A stretch of 64,000 nucleotides of DNA from Bacteroidales bacterium (GTDB lineage: Bacteria; Bacteroidota; Bacteroidia; Bacteroidales; WCHB1-69), in the NCBI GenBank assembly GCA_045598105.1, contig JAZLLK010000049.1:38072-102071 (forward strand), given 5' to 3'. The translations under genes were made by a program, and so were the position numbers. The notes under the pieces were generated by a model. It saw nothing but the letters and a program-made list of their open reading frames with translations, was not told the origin of the DNA and searched no databases. This document shows positions 6,453 through 55,344 of the stretch, in pieces (positions within the stretch are counted from its first letter, which is position 1; each line of letters starts with the position of its first letter).

Positions 6453-6460
6453 TACCTTTG
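6453..6460 (+). promoter_or_regulatory. -7 box TACCTTTG for the tlpA-to-lpxB gene string
   Basis: Exact TAnnTTTG, 72 nt upstream of the ATG at 6532. Confidence 0.65.
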
Positions 6461-6531: not shown

Positions 6532-7044
6532 ATGAAAAAATTAGTATTTGCAGCTTTGTTAGCTTGTGTATGTATGAGTGTCATGTGTCAGGAAGGTATA
6601 TCCGGCAGGGTTATACCATTGCCTTTGGTAGATATTAAAACACTGGATGGTAATGCGTTCAATACTAAAAATATTAAAAATGACGGCAAGCCGGTGATTA
6701 TATGTTTTTTTGCCACATGGTGTAAGCCCTGCATGGCGGAATTAAAGAATATATCTGATGAGTATGAGGATTGGCAGGACGAAACCGGAGTAAAATTATA
6801 TGCCGTGTCAATAGATGATACACGTTCCAGTTCCAGAGTGGCTCCTTTGGTAAAGGGGCAGGGCTGGGAGTATGAATTTTTGTTGGATGAGAATTCCGAT
6901 TTTAAGCGTGCCATGAATGTGAATGATATTCCGCACACCTTTGTGTTGGATGGCGAAGGTAATATAGTATGGCAGCATGCTTCCTATGCACCCGGAGTGG
7001 AGCAGGAATACATAGAAGTGGTTAAAAAGCTTATAGCCAAATAG
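6532..7044 (+). CDS. TlpA-family periplasmic thiol-disulfide oxidoreductase (thioredoxin fold)
   Basis: Signal peptide MKKLVFAALLACVCMSVMCQ and active site FFATWCKPC. The track ORF begins at a GTG at 6496; the ATG at 6532 gives the signal peptide. Confidence 0.85.
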   Translation: MKKLVFAALLACVCMSVMCQEGISGRVIPLPLVDIKTLDGNAFNTKNIKNDGKPVIICFFATWCKPCMAELKNISDEYEDWQDETGVKLYAVSIDDTRSSSRVAPLVKGQGWEYEFLLDENSDFKRAMNVNDIPHTFVLDGEGNIVWQHASYAPGVEQEYIEVVKKLIAK

Positions 7045-7047
7045 CAT

Positions 7048-8703
7048 ATGACAAAAAAAAGAATATTACTATTCTTATTATGTGCAGGTGTGTCCTTGTC
7101 GTTTGCACAAAATAATTTTTTGAAGAATAGTCGCATATCAGGTAATTTCCAAACGGACGCCCAGTATTATATACCCAATGCTGCCATAGGTGCCGATACG
7201 GTAGAAAACAAGGTGAGAGCCAATGCGTATTTGAACCTTAATTACTCTAATGGAGGATTTTCAGCCGGCTTTAGGTATGAGTTTTATAAGTATCCTTTAA
7301 TTGATTTTGAAAAGTTGAACTATGTGGGGCATGGTATTCCGCATTATTATGCCGGCTATAACCACGAGTATTTTGAAGTGGTGGTAGGCAGTTTTTATGA
7401 ACAATTCGGTAACGGGCTCATATACCGTTCGTATGAAAATCGTAATTTGGGTTATGACAATGCTACTAATGGTATTAAGGTGGTAGGTAAGCCGTATAAG
7501 GGTATTACCATTACCGGAATATGGGGTACGCAGCGTAACCTGTTTGTAAAAGAAGGTGAAATACGGGGTGCAGACTTGGATTTATCGTTCACCGATATGA
7601 TAGATAAAATTAAAACCAGCGGTTTCCGCTTTGGTATGGGTGGCAGTTTTGTATCCAAATATGAAAAAGATAATGACGCTGATTATTATCTTCCTCAAAA
7701 TGTAGCTGCATGGGCGGCCCGTATGAATTTCGGATATAAGGATTTTAATATCAATGCCGAGTATGCTTATAAGTTTAATGATCCGGGTTCCCTTAATAAT
7801 ATGATATATAAGCCGGGAGAGGCCTTGTTTGTTACTGCTTCTTATGCCATGAAGGGTTTGGGAGTATATATTACGGGTATGCGTACCGATAATATGGACT
7901 ATCGTACTAAGCGTAATGCCGTAAGTAATAATAATATTATCAATTATATACCTACTATTACCCGAGAGCACACTTATGCATTGCCTTCTATGTATCCTTA
8001 TGCATCGCAGGCCTTAGGCCAAATGGGTTTTCAGGCACAGGTGAATTACCAGATACCTAAAAAGACCAAAATAGGCGGTAAGTACGGCACCGATATTATG
8101 CTGAACTATTCCCGTATGCATGGTATAAAGCAGCAAATGGTAGCGGAAGCGGTGGAAAACGGCGGTGATATGGCCGGTACCGACGGCTATACATCTAAGT
8201 TTTTTGCCTTTGGCGATTTATATTATCAGGATTTTAATATAGAAATAAGCCGTAAATTTACTAAGGCCTGGAAATTGGCCTTGTCGTATGTGTTTCTTAC
8301 CTACAATCAGTCTGTAATAGAAGGTCATGTGGGGGAACCTGATGTGAATTCACACACGGTAATAGCTGATTTAACGTATAAAATAAACAATAAGCATGCT
8401 CTAAGGCTGGAATTGCAGCACATGTATGCTAAGGAACATAAGGGAAGTTGGGCCTATGCCCAACTGGAATACACCATAGCACCCAAATGGTTTATATCCG
8501 TATTAGACCGCTGGAATTATGGTAATCCTGATCCATCCAAACGAATACATTACTACATGGTGTCAGGGTCCTTTGTGTATAAAACCACCAAGGTTACTCT
8601 TAATTTTGGCAAGCAATATGAAGGAATATTGTGCGTGGGCGGAGTGTGCAGGGCTGTGCCTGCCTCCTATGGTGTAGGCTTATCGGTGGTAACAAGTTTT
8701 TAA
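7048..8703 (+). CDS. Outer-membrane beta-barrel protein, DUF6029-like
   Basis: Signal peptide ending SFAQ, alternating aromatic beta-strand pattern, and C-terminal ...CVGGVCRAVPASYGVGLSVVTSF with a terminal Phe. Starts 3 nt after the tlpA stop. Confidence 0.6.
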   Translation: MTKKRILLFLLCAGVSLSFAQNNFLKNSRISGNFQTDAQYYIPNAAIGADTVENKVRANAYLNLNYSNGGFSAGFRYEFYKYPLIDFEKLNYVGHGIPHYYAGYNHEYFEVVVGSFYEQFGNGLIYRSYENRNLGYDNATNGIKVVGKPYKGITITGIWGTQRNLFVKEGEIRGADLDLSFTDMIDKIKTSGFRFGMGGSFVSKYEKDNDADYYLPQNVAAWAARMNFGYKDFNINAEYAYKFNDPGSLNNMIYKPGEALFVTASYAMKGLGVYITGMRTDNMDYRTKRNAVSNNNIINYIPTITREHTYALPSMYPYASQALGQMGFQAQVNYQIPKKTKIGGKYGTDIMLNYSRMHGIKQQMVAEAVENGGDMAGTDGYTSKFFAFGDLYYQDFNIEISRKFTKAWKLALSYVFLTYNQSVIEGHVGEPDVNSHTVIADLTYKINNKHALRLELQHMYAKEHKGSWAYAQLEYTIAPKWFISVLDRWNYGNPDPSKRIHYYMVSGSFVYKTTKVTLNFGKQYEGILCVGGVCRAVPASYGVGLSVVTSF

Positions 8704-8740
8704 TACTCTAGTATAAAGCAAAACAGAAACATACTATAAA

Positions 8741-9622
8741 ATGAAAAAAATAACAATAATGCTAGCCGCCGTAGTGCTTATGGCAGCTTGTGATAAAATA
8801 GAAAAACCTTATAAGGTAGAGCACCCTAAGGTGCTTATAAGCGTGGACACTCCTTCGTTTGAGCCTGTGAATAGTGCCATAAAGAAAATATTGGCAGAAG
8901 AATATACGGGGCACCGTTGTGTGAATTGTCCTCAAGGGCATAAGACATTGGCCGATTTAAAGGCCAACATGAAGGATACCCTGGTGGTGCTGGCCTTACA
9001 TGTATCAGAGCAGCAGGCTGCTCCTGATCCTAATGATACCACTTGCCCTGTAGGCTATATTATGGATTATCGTACCACGGCAGGTAATGCTTACGAAAAT
9101 AATTTTTCCATAGGATCTTTGCCGGCTGCGGTGTTTAACCGCACTCTTATTAACGGAATGTATGGGCAGAATTCGGTGAGTTCATGGAAAACCATGGCAG
9201 AAAGCCAGTCTCACGGGGCGGCAGATGCCGGTTTGCAAATAATACCGGTGTGGAATGCCAATGAAGATACCGTATTTGTATTTGTAAACACAACCTTATT
9301 TACCAATATAAATAATAGTATGCGGTTATGTGTGTTATTGTCGGAAAATAACATAGTATCTCCGCAAAAAAACGGTAAACCTGCTATAGGCAGTGTGCCC
9401 AGTATATGTGATTACACGCACCAGCACATGCTGCGTACCAATATATCTCCTATAGAAGGTACTCCCATAAGTATATCACAGCAGTCGGAACATGTAATAT
9501 GTGCCTATGCTTTGCCTTGGAACAGCAAGTGGCAAAAAAATAACAGCAATGTAGTAGCCATGCTTCTCAATGCCGATACGCAGGAAGTGATGCAGGTAGA
9601 AGAAATACAGGTAGCGGAATAA
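8741..9622 (+). CDS. Omp28-related outer-membrane lipoprotein with a thioredoxin-like CxxC
   Basis: Lipobox LMAAC. EEYTGHRCVNCPQGH matches the family signature E-x-F-T-G-x-x-C-x-x-C-P as I remember it. Confidence 0.6.
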   Translation: MKKITIMLAAVVLMAACDKIEKPYKVEHPKVLISVDTPSFEPVNSAIKKILAEEYTGHRCVNCPQGHKTLADLKANMKDTLVVLALHVSEQQAAPDPNDTTCPVGYIMDYRTTAGNAYENNFSIGSLPAAVFNRTLINGMYGQNSVSSWKTMAESQSHGAADAGLQIIPVWNANEDTVFVFVNTTLFTNINNSMRLCVLLSENNIVSPQKNGKPAIGSVPSICDYTHQHMLRTNISPIEGTPISISQQSEHVICAYALPWNSKWQKNNSNVVAMLLNADTQEVMQVEEIQVAE

Positions 9623-11118
9623 TGGTACAATTGAAAAAACTGGTAGGGCAAACAGCCATATATGGCTTAAGCAGCATAATAGGTCGTTTTCTTAATTATT
9701 TGCTGGTCCCGTTATACACTTATAAAATAGCTGCCGAATCGGGAGGTTACGGTGTGGTTACCAATATGTATGCATATACGGGACTATTGTTGGTATTACT
9801 CACTTTTGGTATGGAAACCACTTATTTCCGATTTGCCAATAAAGAAGGCGTTGATCCAGACAAGGCTTTTTCCACGGCACAATGGGCAGTAGGCATAGTA
9901 GCCATGGTATTTGTAACCGTATTGGCCTTGTTTTATAAGCCTATAGCCGGAATTATGAATTATGCGGCACATTCGGAATATGTGCTCATGATGGGCATAG
10001 TGGTGGCTTTTGATGCCTTTCAGGCCATATTGTTTTCCCGTTTGCGTTATGAGAATAGGGCGGTAAAGTTTGCCGGATTAAAGTTGTTGTTTATAATATG
10101 TAACATTATGCTCAATTTGTTCATATTTGTAGCAGCACCGGTGCTATATGTGCGTTATCCTCAGCTTATGGCATGGTATAATCCGCATTATCAGGTGGGG
10201 TACATATTTGTAGTAAATATGATATGTACGGTAAGTATCACTTTAGGGTTTATCCCCGAAATGCGAAAAATGCGTAACGGTTTAGATGTGACTATGCTTA
10301 AGCAAATGTTGAAATATACCTGGCCGTTATTGCTTTTGGGCTTGGCCGGCATACTTAATCAGGTGGCCGATAAAATATGCTATCGTTATATAGTGCCCGG
10401 GCAGGAGGGAGAAGTGCAGTTGGGTATATATGGTGCCTGTGTGAAAATAGCCATGATTATGGCCATGATTACTCAGGCTTTTCGTTATGCGTATGAGCCT
10501 TTTGTATTTGGCGGAAGCCGCAATAACCAAAATAAGGACGTGCAGGCTTTGGTAATGAAGTATTTTGTAATGTTTACTTTATTCGCATTTATGGCCGTAG
10601 TGGCCTATATGCCTTTGCTTAAATATATTATTAAATCCGATTATTGGGAGGGCTTAAAGGCGGTGCCTATAGTAATGATAGCGGAAATATTTATGGGTAT
10701 ATATTTTAACTTGTCGTTTTGGTATAAGCTTACTGATCAAACGTGGTGGGGCGCCGTATTTTCTGGTATAGGGTGTGCGGTACTGCTGGCTGTTAACTTT
10801 ATATTTGTACCGCAATGCGGGTACATGGCCTGTGCATGGGGCGGTTTTGCCGGTTACGGCACCTGTATGGTACTTTCGTATCTGGTAGGTCAAAAACTGG
10901 CTCCGGTGCCGTATCCGGTAAAAGCTATAGCTTTGTATTTTATGCTTACCTTATTGCTATACATGGTAATGACGCATATATACATAGCTAATATGTGGTG
11001 GAGCTTAGTGGTAAATACGTTTATATTGTTGGTGTATGTGGGCGTAATAGCCTATAATGAGCGGGCATTGTTAATCAATGTGGCAGGTGTTATAAAGCGT
11101 AAAGTGCTTAAACGGTAA
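9622..11118 (+). CDS. Oligosaccharide flippase family protein (Wzx/MOP superfamily)
   Basis: About 14 hydrophobic segments and the N-terminus GQTAIYGLSSIIGRFLNYLLVPLYT. Its ATG overlaps the previous stop (TAATG). Confidence 0.75.
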   Translation: MVQLKKLVGQTAIYGLSSIIGRFLNYLLVPLYTYKIAAESGGYGVVTNMYAYTGLLLVLLTFGMETTYFRFANKEGVDPDKAFSTAQWAVGIVAMVFVTVLALFYKPIAGIMNYAAHSEYVLMMGIVVAFDAFQAILFSRLRYENRAVKFAGLKLLFIICNIMLNLFIFVAAPVLYVRYPQLMAWYNPHYQVGYIFVVNMICTVSITLGFIPEMRKMRNGLDVTMLKQMLKYTWPLLLLGLAGILNQVADKICYRYIVPGQEGEVQLGIYGACVKIAMIMAMITQAFRYAYEPFVFGGSRNNQNKDVQALVMKYFVMFTLFAFMAVVAYMPLLKYIIKSDYWEGLKAVPIVMIAEIFMGIYFNLSFWYKLTDQTWWGAVFSGIGCAVLLAVNFIFVPQCGYMACAWGGFAGYGTCMVLSYLVGQKLAPVPYPVKAIALYFMLTLLLYMVMTHIYIANMWWSLVVNTFILLVYVGVIAYNERALLINVAGVIKRKVLKR

Positions 11119-12077
11119 TGCTTATGGGGAATAAGGGTAAAGTATTGTTTATAGATAAAGCGCATGCAGATTTTGCACCTGCATTGGAAGCCATTGGTTA
11201 TGAATGTGAAAGCAGACCTGTGGAGTATGCCGACCTTATGACTTGTGCTCATGAGTATACAGGATATGTAATCCGTAGCCGATTTGTCATAGATGCTCCG
11301 TTAATAGATGCGTCAGTTAATTTAAAGTTTATAGCCCGTGTAGGGGCAGGCATGGAAAATATAGATGTGGCTTATGCAGCCGATAAAGGTATAACCTGTC
11401 TTAATTCACCTGAAGGCAATACTGATGCGGTGGGTGAATATGTGGTAGGTGCTATGGTGAATTTGCTGAGGCGTACTATGCAGAGTAACAGTCAGGTAAA
11501 GCAGGGTGTATGGTTGCGTGAGGCTAATAGAGGATATGAGTTGGGTAGCCAAACGGTAGGCATAATAGGTTATGGTAATATGGGGCATAGTTTGGCCAAA
11601 AAGTTGAGCGGTTTTGGTTGCAGGGTGCTGACGTATGATAAATATAAGTCTCATTGCGGTGATGCATACGCTACACAGGTTACATTAGAGGAATTGCAAA
11701 AGGAAAGTGATATAATAAGTATTCATATTAATTATACAATTGATAACTATTATTATATTAATGAATCTTTTTTGAATAATTTTAGCAAAAATATTTATGT
11801 AATAAATACTTCCAGAGGTAAAGTGCTGGATACCGCTGCTTTGTGGAGTTTGCTGCAAAGCGGAAAGGTAAAAGGTGCTGTGCTGGATGTGTTGGAATAT
11901 GAAAATATACGTCTGCAGAACAAACCCTTACAGGAATGGAATGAGGTGATGAGGGGTATAGCTCATAGTAACAAGGTAATATTATCGCCGCATATAGCAG
12001 GCCAAACCCATGAATCATTGCAAAAGCATGTGAAAGTGCTGGTGGAAAAAATAAAACAGTTATCATATATGCAGTAG
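11118..12077 (+). CDS. D-isomer-specific 2-hydroxyacid dehydrogenase (phosphoglycerate dehydrogenase-like)
   Basis: NAD-binding GIIGYGNMGHSLAKKL and a catalytic-domain pattern ending SPHIAGQT. TAATG overlap with the flippase stop; a start at 11124 is also possible. Confidence 0.85.
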   Translation: MLMGNKGKVLFIDKAHADFAPALEAIGYECESRPVEYADLMTCAHEYTGYVIRSRFVIDAPLIDASVNLKFIARVGAGMENIDVAYAADKGITCLNSPEGNTDAVGEYVVGAMVNLLRRTMQSNSQVKQGVWLREANRGYELGSQTVGIIGYGNMGHSLAKKLSGFGCRVLTYDKYKSHCGDAYATQVTLEELQKESDIISIHINYTIDNYYYINESFLNNFSKNIYVINTSRGKVLDTAALWSLLQSGKVKGAVLDVLEYENIRLQNKPLQEWNEVMRGIAHSNKVILSPHIAGQTHESLQKHVKVLVEKIKQLSYMQ

Positions 12078-12082
12078 GCGTA

Positions 12083-13423
12083 ATGGAAGTAGCACTCACA
12101 TTGTTATACACGGTTTTGTTTATGGTACTTATATGTAAGTGTCCGTATTTTAAATCCAAAAGCCTGTCATCGCGAGCATTGTGTGTGCTATTTGGTATGA
12201 AGGTAATGGCCGGTGTATGCATGTATATGATATATACATATTATTATCCTAATAGGAATGAGGCTGATATATTCCGTTATTTTGATGATGCCAGGGTGAT
12301 ATATGAGGCTTTGCCCGAAAGACCTATGGATTATATTAAAATATTATTTGGTATAGGTAATAATACCCCTTATTTTAACGATCATTATTATGTGTATCTT
12401 AATCATTGGGAGCGGCTGGTAGTAACAAATATATTCAGTGATTCGCATACTATTATTCGCTTTAATGCCTTGGTAATGTTGTTCTCGTTCGGGTATTTCA
12501 ATGTGCACAATGTATTTGCGTCTTTTTTGGCCTTTGTAGGCTTATTTTCCATATATAAATGGGTAGAAAATAATATAAAGCAGGTGCATATGTGGTATGT
12601 TATTGCCATATTTTTATTGCCTTCGGTGGTGTTTTGGACCTCGGGAGTACTTAAGGAAAGTATTATTATGTTCGGTACAGGCCTGTTAATATATTCTATG
12701 GATAGTATGGTTCAAAAGCGTGTGTCATGGTATAAGGTTTCCATATATATATTATGTATGATATTGGGAATAGCGGTATTGGTGTATACCAAATTGTATT
12801 ATTGTTTACTCATAGTATTGTTGGGAGTTGTATTTGTACTGAATAAAAAATACAATATAAAACATCCTTTATGGGCGTATATGATTACGATATTGGTAAT
12901 GATACCTTCCTTGTATTTTATGGCTCTTTATTATGATAATAATTATAATGCTTTGTATTTGATAGCCTATAAACATAATGATATGGTGTATTTAGGCATG
13001 GAGGAAGGTGCCCGTATGGCTGACGAGGTAATATTGCAGGATAATATAGCATCGTTTGCGGCCTATATGCCTAAGGCATTGTATAATGCCATGCTGTTGC
13101 CGTTGCCGTTTACTGATTTTTCTCCTATGATGCTTATGGCATGGGGAGAGCAGCTGTTATTAATGGCGGGTATGGTGTTGTTATTGGCAATGGGGGCGCA
13201 TGTACCTATAAAGAATAAGAATATGTTTTGGTTTTGCATGCTGTTCTACATAGCCAATGCTATGGTAATAGGTATAAGTGTACCCATAATAGGGGCCATA
13301 GTGCGGTATAGGAGTGTGAGTTTGCCATTTTTAATAGTAGCAGTGTGCTTGTGCTGTGATACATATACCATAAAAAAAAGAAGCCGTAAGGTGATCAAGT
13401 ATATACAAAAACATTCTATATGA
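12083..13423 (+). CDS. Polytopic membrane protein of unknown function
   Basis: 446-aa ORF with at least 10 hydrophobic spans. It sits 5 nt after the previous stop and overlaps lpxB by 4 nt. I recognised no family. Confidence 0.6.
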   Translation: MEVALTLLYTVLFMVLICKCPYFKSKSLSSRALCVLFGMKVMAGVCMYMIYTYYYPNRNEADIFRYFDDARVIYEALPERPMDYIKILFGIGNNTPYFNDHYYVYLNHWERLVVTNIFSDSHTIIRFNALVMLFSFGYFNVHNVFASFLAFVGLFSIYKWVENNIKQVHMWYVIAIFLLPSVVFWTSGVLKESIIMFGTGLLIYSMDSMVQKRVSWYKVSIYILCMILGIAVLVYTKLYYCLLIVLLGVVFVLNKKYNIKHPLWAYMITILVMIPSLYFMALYYDNNYNALYLIAYKHNDMVYLGMEEGARMADEVILQDNIASFAAYMPKALYNAMLLPLPFTDFSPMMLMAWGEQLLLMAGMVLLLAMGAHVPIKNKNMFWFCMLFYIANAMVIGISVPIIGAIVRYRSVSLPFLIVAVCLCCDTYTIKKRSRKVIKYIQKHSI

Positions 13424-14529
13424 AATATTATATTATATCAGGTGAGGCATCAGGCGACCTGCATGCGGCCAATTTAGTGCGGCACCTTATGCAAAGTGAT
13501 ACTCAGGCGCAGGTACGTGCCTGGGGTGGTCCCTTACTGAGGCAGGCAGGAGCCTGTGTGGTAAAAGATTATAGTGAAACAGCCTATATGGGGTTTGTAG
13601 AAGTGCTTACTCATGCGGATAAAATAATGCGTAACTTTTCATTTTGCAAAAAAGACATATTAGCTTATGCTCCTGATGTGGTAATATTGGTGGACTATCC
13701 GGGCTTTAATTTACGCATAGCCAAATTTTTGCATGAGCATCATTTGCGGGTATTTTATTATATTTCACCGCAGGTGTGGGCATGGAAGAAGAACAGGGTG
13801 CATGCTATACGCAAATATGTGGATGAAATGTTTGTAATACTGCCTTTTGAACAGCAATTTTATGCGCAGCATAACATGAAGGTGCATTATTTTGGTCACC
13901 CTTTGCTTGATGTGGTGAAGCAGGCTTGTATTGATGCCCGTTTTAAAGAAAGGCATAGCCTTTCAAACAAGCCTGTTATAGCCGTGTTACCCGGCAGCCG
14001 CCGACAGGAAATATTGCGTATGCTTCCCACTATGCTCAAGGTAGCATCACAGTATGATACCTGCCAAATAGTAATAGCAGGTGTGGAGCATCACAAGAAC
14101 CTGTATACCCCTTATGAACAGGAGTATAAGGTAAAAGTGGTGTATAACAGTACCTATGATTTGTTACACTGTGCTCATGTGGCATTGGTTACTTCAGGCA
14201 CAGCCACATTAGAAACGGCTTTGTTCAATGTACCTCAGGTAGTGTGCTATAAGGCCAATTATTTGTCGTATGTAATAGCTAAACATTTAATTAAGGGTAT
14301 CAGTTATATTTCATTGGTAAATTTAATAGCGGATGCCCCGGTGGTAACCGAATTAATACAGCAGGACATGAATCCGTGTACACTGAAAAATGAAACCGAT
14401 AAAATAATGGGAGGTTACTGTAGGGAACGTATGTTGCAGCAGTATGCACAATTACAATATAGTATGGGTAATGGCGAAGCCTCCATGCGTATAGCGGAGC
14501 AAATGGTGAAATTATTAGAAAAAAAATAA
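13420..14529 (+). CDS. lpxB: Lipid-A-disaccharide synthase
   Basis: YYIISGEASGDLHAANL, DYPGFNLR and SPQVWAWKKNR motifs. ATGA start/stop overlap with the upstream gene. Confidence 0.9.
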   Translation: MKYYIISGEASGDLHAANLVRHLMQSDTQAQVRAWGGPLLRQAGACVVKDYSETAYMGFVEVLTHADKIMRNFSFCKKDILAYAPDVVILVDYPGFNLRIAKFLHEHHLRVFYYISPQVWAWKKNRVHAIRKYVDEMFVILPFEQQFYAQHNMKVHYFGHPLLDVVKQACIDARFKERHSLSNKPVIAVLPGSRRQEILRMLPTMLKVASQYDTCQIVIAGVEHHKNLYTPYEQEYKVKVVYNSTYDLLHCAHVALVTSGTATLETALFNVPQVVCYKANYLSYVIAKHLIKGISYISLVNLIADAPVVTELIQQDMNPCTLKNETDKIMGGYCRERMLQQYAQLQYSMGNGEASMRIAEQMVKLLEKK

Positions 14530-30143: not shown

Positions 30144-30177
30144 GAGTGAGTAATTCAATTGGTTGCTCACTTTTTTT
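30144..30177 (+). terminator. rpmH terminator
   Basis: AGTGAG / CTCACT stem followed by a T7 run. It overlaps the spurious 5' extension of the next track ORF. Confidence 0.55.
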
Positions 30178-30193
30178 GTATTGTATTTTTTGG

Positions 30194-30201
30194 TACTTTT
30201 G
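30194..30201 (+). promoter_or_regulatory. -7 box TACTTTTG for the YfhO-like gene
   Basis: 25 nt upstream of the ATG at 30226. Confidence 0.55.
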
Positions 30202-30225
30202 TACACATATATAAAGTATATAGTT

Positions 30226-32733
30226 ATGACAAAAGAAAGTAAGATTAAAATTCTAAAGCATGTGTGTGCCGTAGCGGTAATGGCACTCATTACCTTGGTG
30301 TATTTCAAGCCGTTACTTAATGGTGAAGATGTGCGACAATCGGATATGATGTTCTTTGAGGGCATGAGTAAGGAGTTGAAGGATTATCATACCACCACAG
30401 GTGAATATTCCTATTGGACCAATGCCATGTTTTCGGGTATGCCGGCAGCCTACCTGTATGCTAAGCCCGATGCCAATGTGTTTTGGTGGATGGGTTTGCC
30501 CATACAAAAGGGTACGCCCATGATGAGTTATGGTATAGTATTTATGCTGTTATTGTGCTTTTATATAGCCATGTGTCAGTTAGATGTGCATCCTGTTATA
30601 GCTTTTGCTGCGGCTTTGGCCTATGCGTTTTGCTCATATAACCTTATTATTATAGAGGCAGGGCATGTAACCAAGGCCTATACCATAGCTACCATACCTT
30701 TAGTGGTAAGTGGTGTGGTGCTGGCCTATAGGAATAAACGGTTGTCCGGAGGCCTGATATTTATGATAGGCTTTGGTTTTAGTTTGGCACAGTCGCATCC
30801 GCAAATCACCTATTATACCGGTATAGCAGTGGCTTTGTATGCCATAGTGGCTTTGGTGTATGCTATAGCACGCCGAACCATCCCTGATTTTCTTAAGTCA
30901 TCGGCAGTGCTGGTGGTAGCGGGTATATTGGCCATATTGCCCAATATAAGTAACTTATATACTTCTTATGACTATTCTAAAGAAAGTATGCGAGGTAAAA
31001 GCGAGTTGGCTGCCAAGTCTGCCGACTCGGGTTTGGATTATGACTATGCGTATGCATGGAGTTATGGTAAGGGTGAAACTTTTACCCTTCTTGTACCTAA
31101 TGCCTGCGGCGGCTCCTCCGGCATGGAAAGTATGGAAGCCTTTGAGCAGGCATTGCCTAACACGCTCAATACATTAAGAACCGTGCCTATGGAGCAGGAT
31201 CCTAACCGGCTTATACAGCAATGTAATACCTATTGGGGGGCACAGCCTTTTACTTCAGGTCCCGTGTATGCGGGTGCAGTGGTGTGCCTGCTGTTTGTGC
31301 TGAGCATGTTCTTTATTAAAGGTGAAATGCGAATTTGGGCCATAGTGTTGTTTGTGTGTTCTATAGTGTTTGCATGGGGTAAGCATTGCCCTGCAGTAAA
31401 TGATTTTATGTTTTATCATTTCCCCATGTTTAATAAATTTAGAACGCCTTCCATGATATTGGTTCTCACCACGTTTGTTATGGTGTTTTTCGGTTTTTAC
31501 GGGCTTAAACACTTGTTTAATACCGAGACCGACAGGCAGGCTATGAAGAAATCCCTATATATTGCAGTCGGCATAGTGGGCGGTATTACCTTTGTTATGG
31601 CTGTAATGCCTACTTTATTTTTCAATTTTACCGTAGAGCGTGACGCTTCACTGCCGGCAGCCTTACAGTCTGCTTTGGCCGATGACCGAAAAGCATTGCT
31701 GGTGCATGATGCATGGCGTTCATTTTTGTTTATTGCCTTGGCATTTGTAGTATTGTGGATGGCTGTGAATAAGAATATAAAAGCCGAAAAAGCTATATTG
31801 GTATTGGGCGTATTGGCATTGGTAGATTTATGGGGTGTAGATAAACGTTATTTGAATGATAATGATTTTGAAAAACATGATCAGGCCGTATCACAGCAAT
31901 ATGCTGTTACTCCATGTGATGCGGCTATTATGGAAGATAAAACCCCCGGTTATCGTGTGCTCAATTTGGCTGCCAATCCTTTTACCGATACCCATGTGTC
32001 CTATTTTCATCATTCATTAGGAGGTTATCACGGAGCAAAATTAAGAAGATATCAGGAATTTGTGGATTCGGTAATGATGTATGATTTGAATCGTTTTACT
32101 ACACAAATAAATATGGTGCGCAGTGATTCGGATATGTTGGCACTTACCTCATCGCTTCACAGTTTGAATATGCTTAATACCAAGTATTTCATATTCAATT
32201 ATCAGTCTGCTCCATTTGTAAATGAGTCGGTATATGGTCCTGCATGGATAGTAAGTGATGTGCAGTGGGCTAAAAATGCTAACGAGGAGTTGGCTATGAC
32301 CAAATGTGCAAATACCCGTACTACGGCTGTAATAGATGAGCGGTTTAAGAGCCTGTTAGCCGGCTATACATCCGGTGAGGCTTCACAGAGTTCTATCAGT
32401 ATGACAGGGCAAACCTCCAATACCTGCACCTATAAGGTAAAGGCCGAGCGTAATGTGTTGGCTGTATTTTCTGAAATATATTATCCTAAATATTGGAAAG
32501 TGAGTATAGATGGCAAAGAAACCAATGGCTTATTACGTGCTGACTATATATTGAGAGCCTTGGTGGTACCACAGGGTGAGCATGAAATAAAATTTGAGTT
32601 CTACCCCTCTTCATGGTTTGTGGCCCGTAATATATCCATGATAAGTTCTATACTCATTATACTTATTATATTGGGCATAATAGGGTATAAAGTGGTATAT
32701 TTGCCTCGTAAAAAAGCAGTGAGTGAAGCGTAA
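30226..32733 (+). CDS. YfhO-family polytopic membrane protein (putative glycosyl-transfer/glycan-modifying)
   Basis: 835 aa with many transmembrane spans in the first 550 aa, a large C-terminal extracytoplasmic domain and a final transmembrane helix. The start is moved to the first ATG after the promoter. Confidence 0.7.
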   Translation: MTKESKIKILKHVCAVAVMALITLVYFKPLLNGEDVRQSDMMFFEGMSKELKDYHTTTGEYSYWTNAMFSGMPAAYLYAKPDANVFWWMGLPIQKGTPMMSYGIVFMLLLCFYIAMCQLDVHPVIAFAAALAYAFCSYNLIIIEAGHVTKAYTIATIPLVVSGVVLAYRNKRLSGGLIFMIGFGFSLAQSHPQITYYTGIAVALYAIVALVYAIARRTIPDFLKSSAVLVVAGILAILPNISNLYTSYDYSKESMRGKSELAAKSADSGLDYDYAYAWSYGKGETFTLLVPNACGGSSGMESMEAFEQALPNTLNTLRTVPMEQDPNRLIQQCNTYWGAQPFTSGPVYAGAVVCLLFVLSMFFIKGEMRIWAIVLFVCSIVFAWGKHCPAVNDFMFYHFPMFNKFRTPSMILVLTTFVMVFFGFYGLKHLFNTETDRQAMKKSLYIAVGIVGGITFVMAVMPTLFFNFTVERDASLPAALQSALADDRKALLVHDAWRSFLFIALAFVVLWMAVNKNIKAEKAILVLGVLALVDLWGVDKRYLNDNDFEKHDQAVSQQYAVTPCDAAIMEDKTPGYRVLNLAANPFTDTHVSYFHHSLGGYHGAKLRRYQEFVDSVMMYDLNRFTTQINMVRSDSDMLALTSSLHSLNMLNTKYFIFNYQSAPFVNESVYGPAWIVSDVQWAKNANEELAMTKCANTRTTAVIDERFKSLLAGYTSGEASQSSISMTGQTSNTCTYKVKAERNVLAVFSEIYYPKYWKVSIDGKETNGLLRADYILRALVVPQGEHEIKFEFYPSSWFVARNISMISSILIILIILGIIGYKVVYLPRKKAVSEA

Positions 32734-53134: not shown

Positions 53135-55255
53135 CTATTGTATTGTTACTTTGCGGGTAGTGGTACCGTTAGAAGTGTTTATTTTCAATAAATACATACC
53201 TTTTGCCATATTGCTTACATTAATAGTTGCCCGGCTATTATTAGTAGTGGTTACTGCGACCTGTTCACCCAATACATTGTAGAGGGTAAGGGTGGCGTTT
53301 TCACCATTAATGGTGTTTACATTTATGTGAAGTAGGCTGTTGGCGGGGTTAGGATATACATTTATGGAACCGAAACCGGCGTTGGCTTCGTTAATGTTTA
53401 CATTGTCTATCCATTCTATTTCCCAACCGGTACCGGTTTCATAGTTATCGGATAGGAATTTTACATATACAGCATTGGAATTTACTACATATATGGAATC
53501 CAATGTCGGTTTTTTATCGTTAGAGAAGCGGTATTGGCCATGAGTAGGGTATTTCATTTGAGCGCCTACGGAGCTGCCCTGACGCATTAGTTCTATCATA
53601 TCCCCCTGACCAAGGTCGAATTTTTTGAATATAATGCCTACCTGTTCGGGAGCGGTAGAAGGAGCTATAGTCCAGTAGCATGAAATATCTTTATCATATT
53701 GGGCGCCTTCGCTACCATTGGTAATAGAGCCACAGGCGGCTGTTTGTTTGGTAGGATTGGTAGAGGTGGAGCAGTATCCTTTAGATTGTTTGGTAGAGGT
53801 GTAGGTAAAGCGGAATCCTTCACGGGTAGAGTCACTATTGGTGGTGAAGGTAATAAAGGCTTCGTTACCTGAAATATTGCATGTGGTACCTTTGTTTACG
53901 TCACCTGAGTAGGTGGCTTTTAGTTTGGACTCGTCAGCGCAGTTGCCTTGGTATATTTTTACTACGTCATAGCCCATTTCGGTAGCCAATGCTGCTACTG
54001 TAAGGGTGATGGAGGTAGTATTTTCACCCGGTGATATCAGCCATGAGCAGTTGGTATTGTTTCTATAGTTGATACGGCAACTTCCATCGTCAAATGATCC
54101 GTTGGAGGCGGTAAGTGTTTTGGTGCCGGTGAAAAAGTTGGTGGTATCGGTGCGGGGGCGTATGCCGAATATACCCATATTGTTCAGCGTATAGCCGTCC
54201 ATATTGCTAATGGCGAAAAAAGAGTTATTGTAGCCGCCCCATCCCCAATTAATGTGGAGGTAGTCGTTAGCATCGTAACCATCGCATATAAAGGCGTGGC
54301 CGGCGTGAACGCCGCTACCGCCATTATTGGCGCTATAGTATACAGGACAATTTTGGTCTATTTCTTCTTTTAACATTTTTATCCATTCCGTATCATTGTA
54401 TCCGCTTTTGCTTTTGGCATTGGTAGTAGTGGAATATAGGAATCGGCCTCTTAAGGCTGTAACCACATTGGCTGATTGGCTGCCGGATCCGTCAGGACCA
54501 TAGTCCATTTCTACCGATACACCGCAATGGTATATAAGGCGAGCTACAGCATCGTTATAATTGGTAACATCATCGGTCATGGCATTATAATTATAGGTAG
54601 TAGCACCATAATTGGCTGTTTGCTTGCCATATTGTTCCGATATGTATGAGCTGATACCATAGCCGTTTTGAGGATAGCGGTGATAGTATATAATTTGAGC
54701 CATGGCTACTGCTACGCAGCCGTTAGGGGTGTGAAAATCGTAACCGTTTGGAGCGTCTATTTCATCGGGACATAATGAATTGTAGTATTTATCCTGATTC
54801 CATTCGCTAGTGAGCAGTATTTTGCTGGTTCCATTGGCTTTTTGTACTTTGTTGGTTGCAAGGTTAGCCCATTCTTTGGCTACCTGTTCGTCAGCAGGTA
54901 AATTTTGACGGCGTATGTCTGATATTTTATGCTCGTACATGCTTACAAAGTCATCACATGCGGGTATTTTATTCAATATATATTCATTGGTGAGGGAGTA
55001 GCCTAATATGGGGTTCATGCGATTATCGGCAGCTACCAATACAAAACCACCATTGGTGAAGTTGATGACATAATATACAGGTTCATTATCGGCATTGCAC
55101 TTGGATTGTACATTGGCAATAGAGGTAGAGTGGTTGCGGTCCATAGCTTTTATGTGATTTTGAGCTATGGTTGTAGCGGTGTTTACGTCAACGTGTTGAC
55201 CAAAAACAAAAGCCGCTATTAACAGCATGCTTAATGTTAAACCTAACTTTTTCAT
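53135..55255 (-). CDS. C10-family (streptopain-like) cysteine peptidase with propeptide, two CUB-like domains and a T9SS sorting domain
   Basis: Catalytic Cys context PNGCVAVAMAQIIYYH, His context AGHAFICDGY, and WGWGG. Two C-x-W-x-I...(Y/I)xxG modules. C-terminus VYPNPANSLLHI...GMYLLKINTSNGTTTRKVTIQ. Confidence 0.85.
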   Translation of the reverse strand: MKKLGLTLSMLLIAAFVFGQHVDVNTATTIAQNHIKAMDRNHSTSIANVQSKCNADNEPVYYVINFTNGGFVLVAADNRMNPILGYSLTNEYILNKIPACDDFVSMYEHKISDIRRQNLPADEQVAKEWANLATNKVQKANGTSKILLTSEWNQDKYYNSLCPDEIDAPNGYDFHTPNGCVAVAMAQIIYYHRYPQNGYGISSYISEQYGKQTANYGATTYNYNAMTDDVTNYNDAVARLIYHCGVSVEMDYGPDGSGSQSANVVTALRGRFLYSTTTNAKSKSGYNDTEWIKMLKEEIDQNCPVYYSANNGGSGVHAGHAFICDGYDANDYLHINWGWGGYNNSFFAISNMDGYTLNNMGIFGIRPRTDTTNFFTGTKTLTASNGSFDDGSCRINYRNNTNCSWLISPGENTTSITLTVAALATEMGYDVVKIYQGNCADESKLKATYSGDVNKGTTCNISGNEAFITFTTNSDSTREGFRFTYTSTKQSKGYCSTSTNPTKQTAACGSITNGSEGAQYDKDISCYWTIAPSTAPEQVGIIFKKFDLGQGDMIELMRQGSSVGAQMKYPTHGQYRFSNDKKPTLDSIYVVNSNAVYVKFLSDNYETGTGWEIEWIDNVNINEANAGFGSINVYPNPANSLLHINVNTINGENATLTLYNVLGEQVAVTTTNNSRATINVSNMAKGMYLLKINTSNGTTTRKVTIQ

Positions 55256-55292
55256 TTTTTTCTTTTTTTTGATTAAAACGGATTTTGTCGAC

Positions 55293-55328
55293 TAAAAAAA
55301 AGATTGGCACTAAGGTGCCAATCTTTTG
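55293..55328 (-). terminator. Terminator after the Asp-box protein gene, 45 nt upstream of the C10 peptidase ATG
   Basis: Perfect 10-bp stem AGATTGGCAC / GTGCCAATCT with a 4-nt loop and a U8 tail on the minus strand. Confidence 0.85.
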
Positions 55329-55344
55329 TATGTATTTTCATGTA

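What the first reader, a model, noticed from the sequence alone, without database searches (positions are those of the whole stretch)
6532..9622. TlpA reductase / DUF6029-like barrel / Omp28-like CxxC lipoprotein triad: a possible trans-envelope thiol-redox module
Three consecutive secreted proteins are spaced by 3 nt and 37 nt. The first is a periplasmic TlpA-type thioredoxin (WCKPC). The second is a 551-aa predicted outer-membrane beta-barrel ending in ...CVGGVCRAVPASYGVGLSVVTSF, with a Cys pair next to the C-terminal Phe signature. The third is an outer-membrane lipoprotein with a thioredoxin-like E-E-Y-T-G-H-R-C-V-N-C-P motif. Two CxxC proteins in different compartments flanking a barrel with its own Cys pair would fit an electron relay toward the outer membrane or cell surface. 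As far as I know, the barrel and Omp28-like families have no assigned biochemical function.
Basis: partly seen in the sequence, partly recalled or inferred. Interest (0 to 1): 0.55.

Follow-up and report, generated by a model that had tools for sequence, protein, structure and literature searches.

The report
Conserved outer-membrane thiol-redox gene trio
Three adjacent genes in a rumen-type Bacteroidales genome, encoding a periplasmic disulfide reductase, a large outer-membrane barrel with an invariant cysteine pair and a thioredoxin-fold lipoprotein, form a module conserved across Bacteroidota that has no described function and may carry reducing power to the outer membrane or cell surface.

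Summary
The three ORFs, their 3-nt and 37-nt spacing and all quoted motifs are present.

The trio is a conserved module, not a chance neighbourhood.
- A TlpA-like gene sits directly upstream of the DUF6029 barrel in 80/80 related genome loci.
- The Omp28-like lipoprotein follows the barrel in 56 of 77 scorable loci.
- Eight of eleven distant loci carry the trio, in unrelated contexts. One of these adds DsbD on the same strand.

The cysteines are conserved.
- The barrel pair (CxGGxC) supplies 2 of only 7 invariant positions over 113 sequences down to 27% identity.
- The lipoprotein CxxC and a candidate cis-proline are invariant.

The structure models are confident.
- The lipoprotein is a thioredoxin fold plus a beta-sandwich. 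Its best structural match is P. gingivalis HBP35, a surface protein with proven thioredoxin activity.
- The barrel has about 24 strands and no plug. The cysteine hairpin lies before the last strand, on the extracellular or lumenal side by strand parity.

A thiol-redox role is well supported. Electron relay through the barrel is plausible but unproven. No searched paper links these families.

The parts
6453..6460 (+). Candidate Bacteroidetes-type -7 promoter box (TACCTTTG), 72 nt upstream of the TlpA-like start codon
   Evidence: Pattern TANNTTTG. The same octamer recurs just upstream of other ORFs in the window, for example 14575, 23315 and 43933. Consensus match only. The whole-window count is not above chance (86 found against 84 expected).
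6532..7044 (+). TlpA-like periplasmic thiol-disulfide reductase (170 aa). Signal peptide aa 1-19, active site W63-C-K-P-C67, candidate cis-Pro P134
   Evidence: Pfam AhpC-TSA 70 bits and Redoxin 53 bits. C64, C67 and P134 are 81/81. It lies directly upstream of DUF6029 in 80/80 loci. It is 48-69% identical in distant trios, the most conserved of the three proteins.
6718..6732 (+). WCKPC redox motif of the TlpA-like protein
   Evidence: Translation. Conservation: W 80/81, C 81/81, P 80/81, C 81/81.
7048..8703 (+). DUF6029 outer-membrane beta-barrel (551 aa), about 24 strands with no plug domain. Signal peptide aa 1-20, mature N-terminus Q21, C-terminal Phe
   Evidence: PF19494 600 bits, full length. 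AF2 pLDDT 95.5 and pTM 0.90, with 24 long strands. Foldseek returns only generic large barrels at TM 0.3-0.47: FimD/PapC, LptD, TonB-dependent transporters, MtrB.
7387..7473 (+). Most conserved internal loop of the barrel (aa 114-142, GSFYEQFGNGLIYRSYENRNLGYDNATNG). It carries 4 of the 7 family-invariant residues
   Evidence: G114, G123, G135 and G142 are invariant in 113 sequences. Y117, Q119, F120, G121, R127 and N138 are 81/81. AF2 places it between strands 109-116 and 140-150. By strand parity it is an extracellular or lumenal loop (inference).
8617..8664 (+). Cys hairpin YEGILC529VGGVC534RAVPA, between the penultimate and last barrel strands
   Evidence: C529, G532 and C534 are invariant in 113 sequences down to 27% identity. 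C-x4-C is present in 139 of the 150 listed 50%-cluster representatives, and most of those lacking it are fragments. AF2 gives short strands 526-530 and 533-537 joined by the GG turn.
8741..9622 (+). Omp28-family lipoprotein (293 aa): thioredoxin-fold N-domain (about aa 45-135) plus a C-terminal beta-sandwich (Pfam Omp28, aa 116-292)
   Evidence: Pfam Omp28 80.5 bits. NCBIfam lipoprot_Omp28 133 bits, below the 150-bit cut-off. AF2 pLDDT 91. Foldseek top match HBP35 5y1a, E 7e-12 over 261 columns. Profile search: 2r2c E 2e-30 and 5y1a E 0.0017, with CxxC aligned.
8789..8812 (+). Lipidated Cys17 and the conserved tether motif C-D-K-I-E-K-P-Y
   Evidence: C17 and D18 are 57/57. Family pattern is C-D-[KR]-[IV]-E-[GK]-P-[YF]. 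It only partly matches the Bacteroidetes lipoprotein export signal C-X-K-(D/E)2-X (PMC5080379).
8897..8932 (+). E-E-Y-T-G-H-R-C60-V-N-C63-P thioredoxin-type active-site motif
   Evidence: E53, T56, G57, H58, C60, C63 and P64 are invariant in A2. CxxC is kept in 69/69 tblastn matches across loci. AF2 puts it at the N-terminus of helix 63-80, after strand 50-56. Distant members read WCGWCP, WCGFCP and WCPACP.
9413..9436 (+). Y-T-H-Q-H-M-L-R motif in the beta-sandwich domain
   Evidence: Y225, H227, H229 and R232 are 56/57. It aligns with YLHQH of HBP35 and YEHNHVLR of P. gingivalis Omp28. The HBP35 authors proposed H204-H206 as possible heme ligands (PMC2907840).

Best explanation
The trio is a dedicated thiol-reducing branch that ends at the outer membrane.

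Proposed path of electrons:
1. Reducing equivalents come from cytoplasmic thioredoxin through the inner-membrane transporter DsbD. DsbD is not encoded in this 64-kb window but is adjacent to the trio in one locus.
2. They pass to the soluble periplasmic TlpA-like reductase (WCKPC).
3. The reductase's direct client is the DUF6029 barrel. This is a roughly 24-stranded, plug-less barrel whose invariant C-x-G-G-x-C-R hairpin lies just before the last strand, on the extracellular or lumenal side.
4. The Omp28-family lipoprotein is an HBP35-like thioredoxin fold plus beta-sandwich. It works as the barrel's partner and is the terminal CxxC reductase. It most likely acts on disulfides of surface or extracellular substrates.

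Shown here: the gene order and its conservation, the conservation of every redox Cys, and confident models of the thioredoxin fold and the barrel.

Inferred: that the proteins form a complex, that TlpA acts on the barrel hairpin, that the lipoprotein faces outward, the direction of electron flow, and the substrate.
For: Synteny
- TlpA-like is directly upstream of DUF6029 in 80/80 loci (51-85% identical barrels). Omp28-like is directly downstream in 56/77. Median gaps are 9 and 19 nt.
- The trio recurs in distant loci with unrelated flanks: L081, L083, L084, L085, L091, L092, L093 and L094. DUF6029 with Omp28 occurs in 10 of 11 distant loci.
- All three distant Omp28-like queries (27-37% identity) landed in trios.
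- L091 reads Redoxin-DUF6029-Omp28-DsbD on one strand. L087 has DsbD about 5.5 kb away.

Cysteines
- Barrel C529 and C534 are 2 of 7 invariant positions in 113 sequences. They are present in 139/150 cluster representatives, and most of the exceptions are fragments.
- Lipoprotein C60, C63, P64 and P128 are invariant. CxxC is kept in 69/69 matches.
- TlpA C64, C67 and P134 are 81/81.

Fold
- The lipoprotein model (pLDDT 91) has CxxC at a helix N-terminus after a beta-strand.
- Its best PDB match is HBP35 (E 7e-12), with CxxC aligned in the sequence profile.
- HBP35 is surface-located and reduces insulin in a Cys-dependent way (PMC2907840).

Surface location of the partner
- Omp28-domain proteins with the CxxC and a T9SS sorting domain lie next to TlpA-DUF6029 in L085 and L072.

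Other
- NCBIfam has an 'Omp28-related selenoprotein' model that this protein hits weakly.
- The barrel is as large as the barrels that house a partner protein: usher, LptD, MtrB.
Against: - No experiment exists, and no multimer model could be run.
The position of the Cys hairpin rests on strand parity and on where indels fall. On that reading it is on the far side of the membrane from TlpA, unless it dips into the lumen.
- 21 of 77 close loci have TlpA and the barrel but no adjacent lipoprotein.
- Two distant loci have the barrel and lipoprotein without TlpA.
- DsbD is adjacent in only one of 94 loci. No DsbD homolog is detectable in the 64-kb window.
- The lipoprotein N-terminus only partly fits the export signal.
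- The physiological role of HBP35's thioredoxin activity is unknown.
- A hairpin C-x4-C could be a purely structural disulfide.
Confidence: 0.5

Rival explanations
1. The trio is an outer-membrane barrel-lipoprotein transport or binding complex with a biogenesis helper. The barrel and lipoprotein would form a nutrient channel or receptor, possibly for heme or protein as with HBP35, or a trypsin-binding type of surface protein. C529-C534 would be a structural disulfide. The TlpA-like protein would only assist maturation, by isomerising or proof-reading disulfides or by keeping Cys reduced before BAM insertion or export. No catalytic electron flow to the membrane would be involved.
For: - Stable surface-lipoprotein/barrel complexes are common in Bacteroidota (bioRxiv 10.1101/2025.01.31.636011).
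- HBP35 binds hemin through its C-terminal part, and the YxHxH motif is shared.
- An 'Omp28-related' T9SS protein of Paraprevotella clara recruits trypsin to the cell surface, with no redox step reported (PMC9477747).
- The hairpin geometry C-x-G-G-x-C suits a cross-strand disulfide.
- The window operon continues into envelope genes including LpxB. In L081 the trio follows uppS-bamA-skp-skp.
Against: - A helper needed only for folding would not be expected to stay glued to one barrel gene in 88 of 91 loci, or to be the most conserved of the three proteins.
- The lipoprotein keeps a complete thioredoxin active site (CxxC plus the candidate cis-Pro) in every member.
- Same-strand DsbD in L091 points to sustained electron supply.
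Confidence: 0.27
2. The trio is a metal or heme handling module of the TlpA-Sco type. The lipoprotein would be a metallochaperone or heme-binding protein whose CxxC and conserved histidines (H58, H87, H227, H229) ligate a metal. TlpA would keep the ligand cysteines reduced, as TlpA does for ScoI/CoxB, and the barrel would admit the metal or heme.
For: - H87 is invariant, and H227 and H229 are 56/57.
- HBP35 binds hemin.
- TlpA reducing Sco-type copper chaperones is established knowledge (own knowledge, not tested here).
Against: - H58 is replaced by Trp in distant members, which carry a canonical thioredoxin W-C-G-x-C-P motif. It is T, Q, A or C in 6/57 orthologs.
- HBP35's hemin binding does not need its CxxC.
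- No metal-related genes recur next to the trio.
- The spatial clustering of the histidines with the CxxC could not be checked.
Confidence: 0.08
3. DUF6029 is a Wzi-like polysaccharide porin and the locus serves polysaccharide export. The two redox proteins would be incidental.
For: - One paper reports HHpred similarity between plug-less Wzi-barrel homologs and DUF6029 (PMC9603273).
- In this window a Wzx-like membrane protein overlaps the lipoprotein stop codon by 1 nt.
Against: - The Wzx-like neighbour is kept only in the five closest loci, L001-L005, and is absent from all distant trios.
- A profile search of PDB sequences found nothing, and Wzi is not among the top 50 Foldseek matches.
- The reading does not explain the invariant Cys pair or the TlpA and Omp28 linkage.
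Confidence: 0.04

Closest known systems
DsbD-fed periplasmic reductases of the TlpA/ResA/CcmG (DsbE) type
   Same: Secreted thioredoxin-fold protein with W-C-x-P-C and a conserved proline at the cis-Pro position. It hits the ResA, StoA, DsbE and TlpA models. DsbD is adjacent in L091. It appears dedicated to particular client proteins.
   Different: It is below every equivalog or subfamily cut-off (ResA 66 bits against 170, TlpA 27.5 against 230). There are no cytochrome c maturation or Sco/Cox genes nearby. The conserved neighbours are an outer-membrane barrel and a lipoprotein, which is not a known client set.
HBP35 of Porphyromonas gingivalis (PDB 5y1a)
   Same: Same two-domain architecture, thioredoxin fold plus beta-sandwich (Foldseek E 7e-12, TM 0.62 over 261 columns). 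The CxxC and YxHxH motifs align. HBP35 is on the cell surface and has Cys-dependent thioredoxin activity in vitro.
   Different: HBP35 is a T9SS cargo anchored through A-LPS, not a lipoprotein. Sequence similarity is marginal (E 0.0017). Its active site is WCGYCP rather than H-x-C-x-N-C-P. Whether the HBP35 gene has TlpA or DUF6029 neighbours was not tested.
Omp28 lipoprotein of P. gingivalis (PG2173; PDB 2r2c; Pfam PF11551)
   Same: Family member by Pfam. The C-terminal beta-sandwich matches 2r2c (profile E 2e-30). It is a lipoprotein.
   Different: The solved structure and the Pfam model cover only the C-terminal domain. The thioredoxin domain that carries the CxxC lies outside both. The protein scores below the NCBIfam subfamily cut-off (133 against 150).
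MtrCAB porin-cytochrome conduit (PDB 6r2q) and LptDE plug-and-barrel
   Same: Each has a very large plug-less barrel encoded with a periplasmic partner and an outer-membrane lipoprotein. MtrB and LptD are among the Foldseek matches. The logic is the same: a barrel that lets a protein-borne function cross the outer membrane.
   Different: TM-scores are only 0.3-0.4, so there is no evidence of homology. There are no hemes. The carriers here would be cysteine pairs, for which no trans-outer-membrane precedent is known to me.
SprF/PorG - GldK/PorK disulfide tether of the gliding and T9SS machinery
   Same: A Bacteroidota outer-membrane barrel with an invariant Cys pair near its C-terminus that undergoes thiol-disulfide exchange with a lipoprotein partner (PMC12635249).
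   Different: There the motif is C-x-C in a periplasmic tail, the partner is a periplasmic-face lipoprotein, and the bond is a mechanical link. Here the motif is C-x4-C in a hairpin before the last strand, and it is accompanied by two thioredoxin-fold proteins.
[quoted passage not shown]
   Same: Annotated in the same family. It is surface-located through the T9SS, like the Omp28-domain T9SS proteins next to the module in L085 and L072.
   Different: Its reported function is trypsin recruitment and autodegradation, with no redox chemistry described. Whether it carries the CxxC domain, and what genes 00503-00508 encode, could not be checked.

Membership tests
TlpA/ResA/CcmG-type periplasmic thiol-disulfide reductases | Thioredoxin-fold domain (Pfam AhpC-TSA / Redoxin / Thioredoxin_8) above gathering score | tested here: met
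   70, 52.9 and 46.4 bits against cut-offs of 26-27.
TlpA/ResA/CcmG-type periplasmic thiol-disulfide reductases | Export signal and a W-C-x-x-C active site with a conserved cis-proline | tested here: met
   Signal peptide with A|Q-type cleavage in orthologs (A at position 19 in 72/81). C64, C67 and P134 are 81/81. The cis conformation itself was not modelled.
TlpA/ResA/CcmG-type periplasmic thiol-disulfide reductases | Membership of a named equivalog (ResA, StoA, DsbE/CcmG, rhizobial TlpA) | tested here: not met
   All NCBIfam scores are far below their cut-offs: 66/170, 57/210, 45/123 and 27.5/230.
TlpA/ResA/CcmG-type periplasmic thiol-disulfide reductases | Dependence on DsbD/CcdA for reduction | tested here: inconclusive
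   DsbD is a same-strand neighbour in L091 and lies about 5.5 kb away in L087/88. None is detectable in this window or in the 80 close loci.
DUF6029 (PF19494) | Full-length match above gathering score | tested here: met
   600 bits, residues 3-551 against profile positions 3-538 of 538.
DUF6029 (PF19494) | Outer-membrane beta-barrel with a C-terminal aromatic residue and the C-x-G-G-x-C-R hairpin | tested here: met
   AF2 pLDDT 95.5 with about 24 strands. F551, C529 and C534 are 81/81. The Cys pair is invariant in 113 sequences.
Omp28 family (PF11551 / NF033782) | Pfam Omp28 domain above gathering score | tested here: met
   80.5 bits against 34.9, residues 116-292.
Omp28 family (PF11551 / NF033782) | NCBIfam 'Omp28 family outer membrane lipoprotein' subfamily cut-off | tested here: not met
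   133.3 bits against a 150-bit cut-off, although aligned end to end (5-292 against 7-262 of 264).
Omp28 family (PF11551 / NF033782) | Lipoprotein signal peptide with lipobox Cys | tested here: met
   ...LMAAC17, with C17 in 57/57.
Thioredoxin-fold oxidoreductase (lipoprotein N-domain) | beta-alpha-beta core with CxxC at the helix N-terminus, and a conserved proline before the next strand | tested here: met
   AF2 gives strand 50-56, C60-x-x-C63 and helix 63-80, strand 81-87, and P128 before strand 129-132. C60, C63 and P128 are invariant. The profile also weakly hits archaeal thioredoxins.
Thioredoxin-fold oxidoreductase (lipoprotein N-domain) | Disulfide oxidoreductase activity | not testable with these tools
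   Shown only for the remote homolog HBP35 (PMC2907840).
HBP35-like surface thioredoxins | T9SS C-terminal sorting domain | tested here: not met
   No Por_Secre_tail hit. The protein is a lipoprotein instead. T9SS versions do occur beside the module in L085 and L072.
Bacteroidetes surface-exposed lipoproteins | Lipoprotein export signal C-X-K-(D/E)2-X | tested here: inconclusive
   The motif is C-D-K-I-E-K. K is at +3 and acidic residues at +2 and +5, but 0/39 sequences match the strict pattern. 36/39 have at least 2 acidic residues in +2 to +6.
Wzi-like polysaccharide porins | Detectable sequence or structure similarity to Wzi, and conserved polysaccharide-export neighbours | tested here: not met
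   No PDB sequence hit at E up to 10. Wzi is absent from the top 50 Foldseek matches. The Wzx-like neighbour occurs only in L001-L005. HHpred was not available.

The most novel reading that the evidence does not exclude
DUF6029 is an outer-membrane counterpart of DsbD. Its invariant C-x-G-G-x-C hairpin, hanging into the lumen of a 24-stranded barrel, would accept electrons from the periplasmic TlpA-like reductase. It would pass them by thiol-disulfide exchange to Omp28/HBP35-type thioredoxin domains on the cell surface, whether lipoprotein or T9SS-anchored. This would give Bacteroidota a catalytic extracellular disulfide reductase. It would be the first thiol-based electron conduit across an outer membrane.
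Probability: 0.22. Interest if true: 0.9.

Novelty: new variant of a known kind. Interest (0 to 1): 0.64.

Why it matters
Thioredoxin-fold proteins such as HBP35 sit on the Bacteroidota cell surface, yet no route is known by which they could be re-reduced outside the periplasm.

This module puts three things side by side in many loci across Bacteroidota (438 relatives found among one-genome-per-species assemblies; 1441 barrel clusters at 50% identity):
- a reductase of the DsbD-dependent type;
- a large barrel whose most conserved feature is a cysteine pair;
- a surface-type thioredoxin domain.

That turns the question into a defined three-gene hypothesis, which can be tested by deletions, Cys-to-Ser changes and thiol trapping.

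If the module does supply reducing power to the surface, it would bear on how gut, oral and rumen Bacteroidota attack disulfide-rich host and dietary proteins and cope with oxidants. It would also give DUF6029 and Omp28 a first biochemical role. If instead the cysteines are structural, the result still defines a widespread barrel-lipoprotein complex with a dedicated folding reductase.

Tried and rejected
- **Polysaccharide export.** I followed the only paper naming DUF6029 and rejected this reading as the main one. The polysaccharide-type neighbours are not conserved. No Wzi similarity was seen.
- **TlpA-like protein as a lipoprotein.** The sequence LLAC12 suggested this. I rejected it because C12, C14 and C19 are not conserved, and position 19 is Ala followed by Gln in most orthologs.
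- **Selenocysteine variants of the lipoprotein.** I searched the loci by tblastn for in-frame stops at the CxxC. There were none in 69 matches.
- **Thiol peroxidase role for the first gene.** The top Pfam hit is AhpC/TSA, but the W-C-x-P-C motif and the ResA/DsbE-type NCBIfam hits point to a reductase. AhpC scores 24.5 bits against a 272-bit cut-off.
- **Model coordinates.** I looked for them to place the Cys hairpin, but none are exposed to the sandbox.
- **P. gingivalis locus.** I tried to learn whether PG2174 and PG2175 next to Omp28 (PG2173) are the barrel and TlpA. The papers give no annotation.
- **P. clara locus.** I tried to learn what 00503-00508 encode. The annotation is only in a figure.
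- **Terminator and sigma-70 promoter scans** gave nothing above chance.

Full report
**What is in the window**

Three same-strand ORFs lie at 6532-7044, 7048-8703 and 8741-9622, separated by 3 and 37 nt.
- The first is a secreted thioredoxin-fold protein with W-C-K-P-C. It hits Pfam AhpC-TSA/Redoxin. Its NCBIfam hits to ResA, StoA, DsbE and TlpA are all below their cut-offs.
- The second is a full-length DUF6029 protein (600 bits) ending ...EGILCVGGVCRAVPASYGVGLSVVTSF.
- The third is a lipoprotein (lipobox ...MAAC17) whose C-terminal 177 residues match Pfam Omp28. Its N-terminal part carries E-E-Y-T-G-H-R-C-V-N-C-P.

A Bacteroidetes-type -7 box (TACCTTTG) lies 72 nt upstream of the first gene. 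The lipoprotein's stop codon overlaps the start of a Wzx-like membrane protein. That gene is followed by a 2-hydroxyacid dehydrogenase, a membrane protein and LpxB. The source is an uncultured Bacteroidales of the rumen type. The nearest relatives are rumen MAGs, and the exact proteins occur on one 124.8-kb NCBI contig.

**Is the trio more than a local accident?**

A scan of one genome per species found 438 loci encoding DUF6029 relatives. The 80 best (51-85% identity) were analysed.
- A TlpA-like gene lies immediately upstream of the barrel in 80/80.
- The Omp28-like gene lies immediately downstream in 56. Three contigs end too early to tell, and 21 have other genes there.
- Median intergenic gaps are 9 and 19 nt.

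To escape this close sample I took distant DUF6029 representatives from an exhaustive HMM search (1441 clusters at 50% identity) and looked up their contigs.
- Redoxin-DUF6029-Omp28 recurs in L081, L083, L085 and L091. In L084 the Omp28 gene is on the opposite strand.
- L087 and L089 have DUF6029-Omp28 without TlpA.
- L090 is a short contig whose barrel has lost the first Cys. It shows neither partner.

Going the other way, three distant homologs of the lipoprotein (27-37% identity) all sit in Redoxin-DUF6029-Omp28 trios. Flanking genes differ in every case: BamA-Skp, gingipain-like peptidases, restriction-modification genes, POR and others. What is conserved is therefore the module itself. 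Across distant trios the TlpA-like protein is the best conserved (48-69% identity), then the barrel (34-52%), then the lipoprotein (25-35%).

**The cysteines**

In 113 DUF6029 sequences down to 27% identity only seven positions are invariant: G114, G123, G135, G142, C529, G532 and C534. The C-x4-C motif (consensus G-x-x-C-x-G-G-x-C-R-x-x-P-A) is present in 139 of the 150 listed cluster representatives. Most of those lacking it are fragments. Many members have no other Cys.

In the lipoprotein family C17, D18, E53, T56, G57, H58, C60, C63, P64, H87, G115 and P128 are invariant. All 69 tblastn matches across loci keep CxxC. Distant Omp28-domain neighbours read W-C-G-W-C-P, W-C-G-F-C-P and W-C-P-A-C-P, which are classical thioredoxin motifs. 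TlpA C64, C67 and P134 are 81/81.

**Structures**

The lipoprotein model (pLDDT 91) has a disordered tether (18-30), a thioredoxin-type beta-alpha-beta unit with C60/C63 at the N-terminus of helix 63-80, P128 before the next strand, and a C-terminal beta-sandwich. Its best PDB match is HBP35 of P. gingivalis (E 7e-12, 261 aligned columns), followed by a DUF1223 protein and the Omp28 C-domain 2r2c. The sequence profile also reaches HBP35 (E 0.0017), with CxxC and the Y-x-H-x-H motif in register.

HBP35 is a T9SS-anchored surface protein whose recombinant form reduces insulin in a Cys-dependent manner. Its hemin binding maps to the C-terminal part (PMC2907840). So the 'Omp28-like CxxC lipoprotein' is a lipoprotein version of a known kind of surface thioredoxin-fold protein. 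The solved Omp28 fragment and the Pfam model simply omit the redox domain.

The barrel model (pLDDT 95.5, pTM 0.90) has about 24 long strands and no plug domain. Foldseek finds only generic large barrels: FimD/PapC ushers, LptD, TonB-dependent transporters and MtrB, at TM 0.3-0.47. C529 and C534 sit on the two short strands (526-530, 533-537) of a G-G-turn hairpin, between strand 514-523 and the last strand 540-550.

I counted strands from a periplasmic N-terminus and checked that family indels fall in the loops predicted to be external. On that count the hairpin is on the extracellular or lumenal side. The other invariant glycines lie in a long conserved loop (114-142) that by the same parity is also external or lumenal. 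This is the main gap.

**Links to an electron source and to the cell surface**

- In L091 the module is followed on the same strand by a full-length DsbD. In L087 a DsbD lies about 5.5 kb away.
- L089 has a thioredoxin-reductase-like gene upstream, and L084 a glutaredoxin-domain gene. These are single cases.
- In L085 two large proteins with the Omp28-type CxxC domain and a T9SS sorting domain precede the trio.
- In L072, one of the loci lacking the lipoprotein, a 575-aa protein with the same domain (C-G-Y-C) and a T9SS tail lies 3 kb upstream. T9SS cargo ends up outside the outer membrane, so at least these partners work at the surface.
- The lipoprotein's own N-terminus, C-D-[KR]-[IV]-E-[GK]-P-[YF], is unusually conserved. 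It only partly resembles the export signal C-X-K-(D/E)2-X. It may instead be a docking motif.

**Most likely mechanism and rivals**

I favour a dedicated reducing branch: DsbD, then the TlpA-like reductase, then the barrel hairpin and/or the Omp28-type thioredoxin domain. The barrel and lipoprotein would act as a complex (confidence 0.5). TlpA-barrel is the tightest association (88 of 91 loci with an upstream region), so the barrel's Cys pair is the most probable direct client of TlpA.

It needs the hairpin to be reachable from both sides.

The main rival (0.27) is a barrel-lipoprotein transport or binding complex in which the disulfide is structural and TlpA is a maturation factor. Two published cases frame the range of possibilities.
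- Bacteroidota barrels SprF and PorG use an invariant C-terminal Cys pair to form an exchangeable disulfide with a lipoprotein (PMC12635249).
- An 'Omp28-related' T9SS protein of Paraprevotella clara recruits trypsin to the surface and triggers its autodegradation (PMC9477747). Whether that protein carries the CxxC domain could not be checked. If it does, reduction of trypsin's disulfides would be an obvious hypothesis.

Metal or heme handling (0.08) and polysaccharide export (0.04) are less likely, for the reasons given under the rivals.

**Novelty**

Full-text searches for DUF6029, PF19494, PF11551, and Omp28 with thioredoxin, selenoprotein or thiol found no paper that connects these families. 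The only DUF6029 mention is a passing polysaccharide suggestion.

The components belong to known kinds, so I rate this a new variant of a known kind: an extracytoplasmic TlpA-type reducing pathway with an unprecedented outer-membrane end. If the trans-membrane relay is real it would be categorically new.

Interest is 0.64. The conservation evidence is strong and the hypothesis is sharply testable, but the mechanism rests on inference.

Noticed in passing
window 9622-14529 (+): The trio appears to head a longer same-strand gene string: a Wzx/HfsF-like membrane protein (start overlaps the lipoprotein stop by 1 nt), a 2-hydroxyacid dehydrogenase (start overlaps by 1 nt), a 446-aa membrane protein with no family, and LpxB. 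Only the five closest loci share the first of these neighbours.
   Followed up: partly
L081 1-10935: In a 3.9-Mb genome the trio lies directly downstream of uppS-bamA-skp-skp and next to a convergent Omp85-family gene. Together with LpxB in the window, this hints at a link with outer-membrane biogenesis loci.
   Followed up: no
L085 1-5182; L072 1081-2808: Large proteins combine the Omp28-type thioredoxin domain (W-C-G-F-C-P, N-C-G-Y-C-P) with a T9SS sorting domain. They sit beside TlpA-DUF6029, and in L072 they apparently replace the lipoprotein.
   Followed up: partly
L091 7292-9376; L087 13277-13705: DsbD genes lie next to or near the module. L089 has a thioredoxin-reductase-like gene just upstream of the barrel. 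L084 has a glutaredoxin-domain protein that lacks an obvious signal peptide.
   Followed up: partly
L090 (protein P0287): The only full-length DUF6029 seen with the first hairpin Cys replaced (LESAGGICRE) has no Omp28 gene downstream. A PorP/SprF gene follows instead. The contig is only 3.9 kb, so absence of the partners is not established.
   Followed up: no
window 8789-8812 and orthologs: The eight residues after the lipidated Cys, C-D-[KR]-[IV]-E-[GK]-P-[YF], are far more conserved than a sorting signal would need. This suggests a specific binding function for the tether.
   Followed up: partly
window 53135-58191 (-): Two T9SS cargo genes are present: a C10 (streptopain-like) peptidase with inhibitor-I69 and CUB domains, and a 948-aa protein with a sortilin-like repeat. 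Both carry Por_Secre_tail, so the organism has a T9SS.
   Followed up: no
window 30163-32733 (+): An 856-aa ORF with no Pfam family at E up to 1e-5.
   Followed up: no
window, many intergenic sites (for example 6453, 14575, 23315, 33601, 39591, 43933): The octamer TACCTTTG recurs just upstream of ORFs on the matching strand. This is consistent with the Bacteroidetes -7 promoter element, although the looser TANNTTTG pattern is not enriched overall.
   Followed up: partly
protein P0164 (alignment A2): An Omp28-related protein carries a partial duplication of the beta-sandwich region ahead of the CxxC domain and is truncated after it. It may be an assembly or gene-call artefact, or a rearranged variant.
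   Followed up: no
literature: PMC9477747: The trypsin-degrading factor 00502 of Paraprevotella clara is annotated 'Omp28-related outer membrane protein'. The paper never mentions thioredoxin or disulfides. Six genes (00503-00508) lie between it and its partner 00509, and I could not retrieve their annotation.
   Followed up: partly
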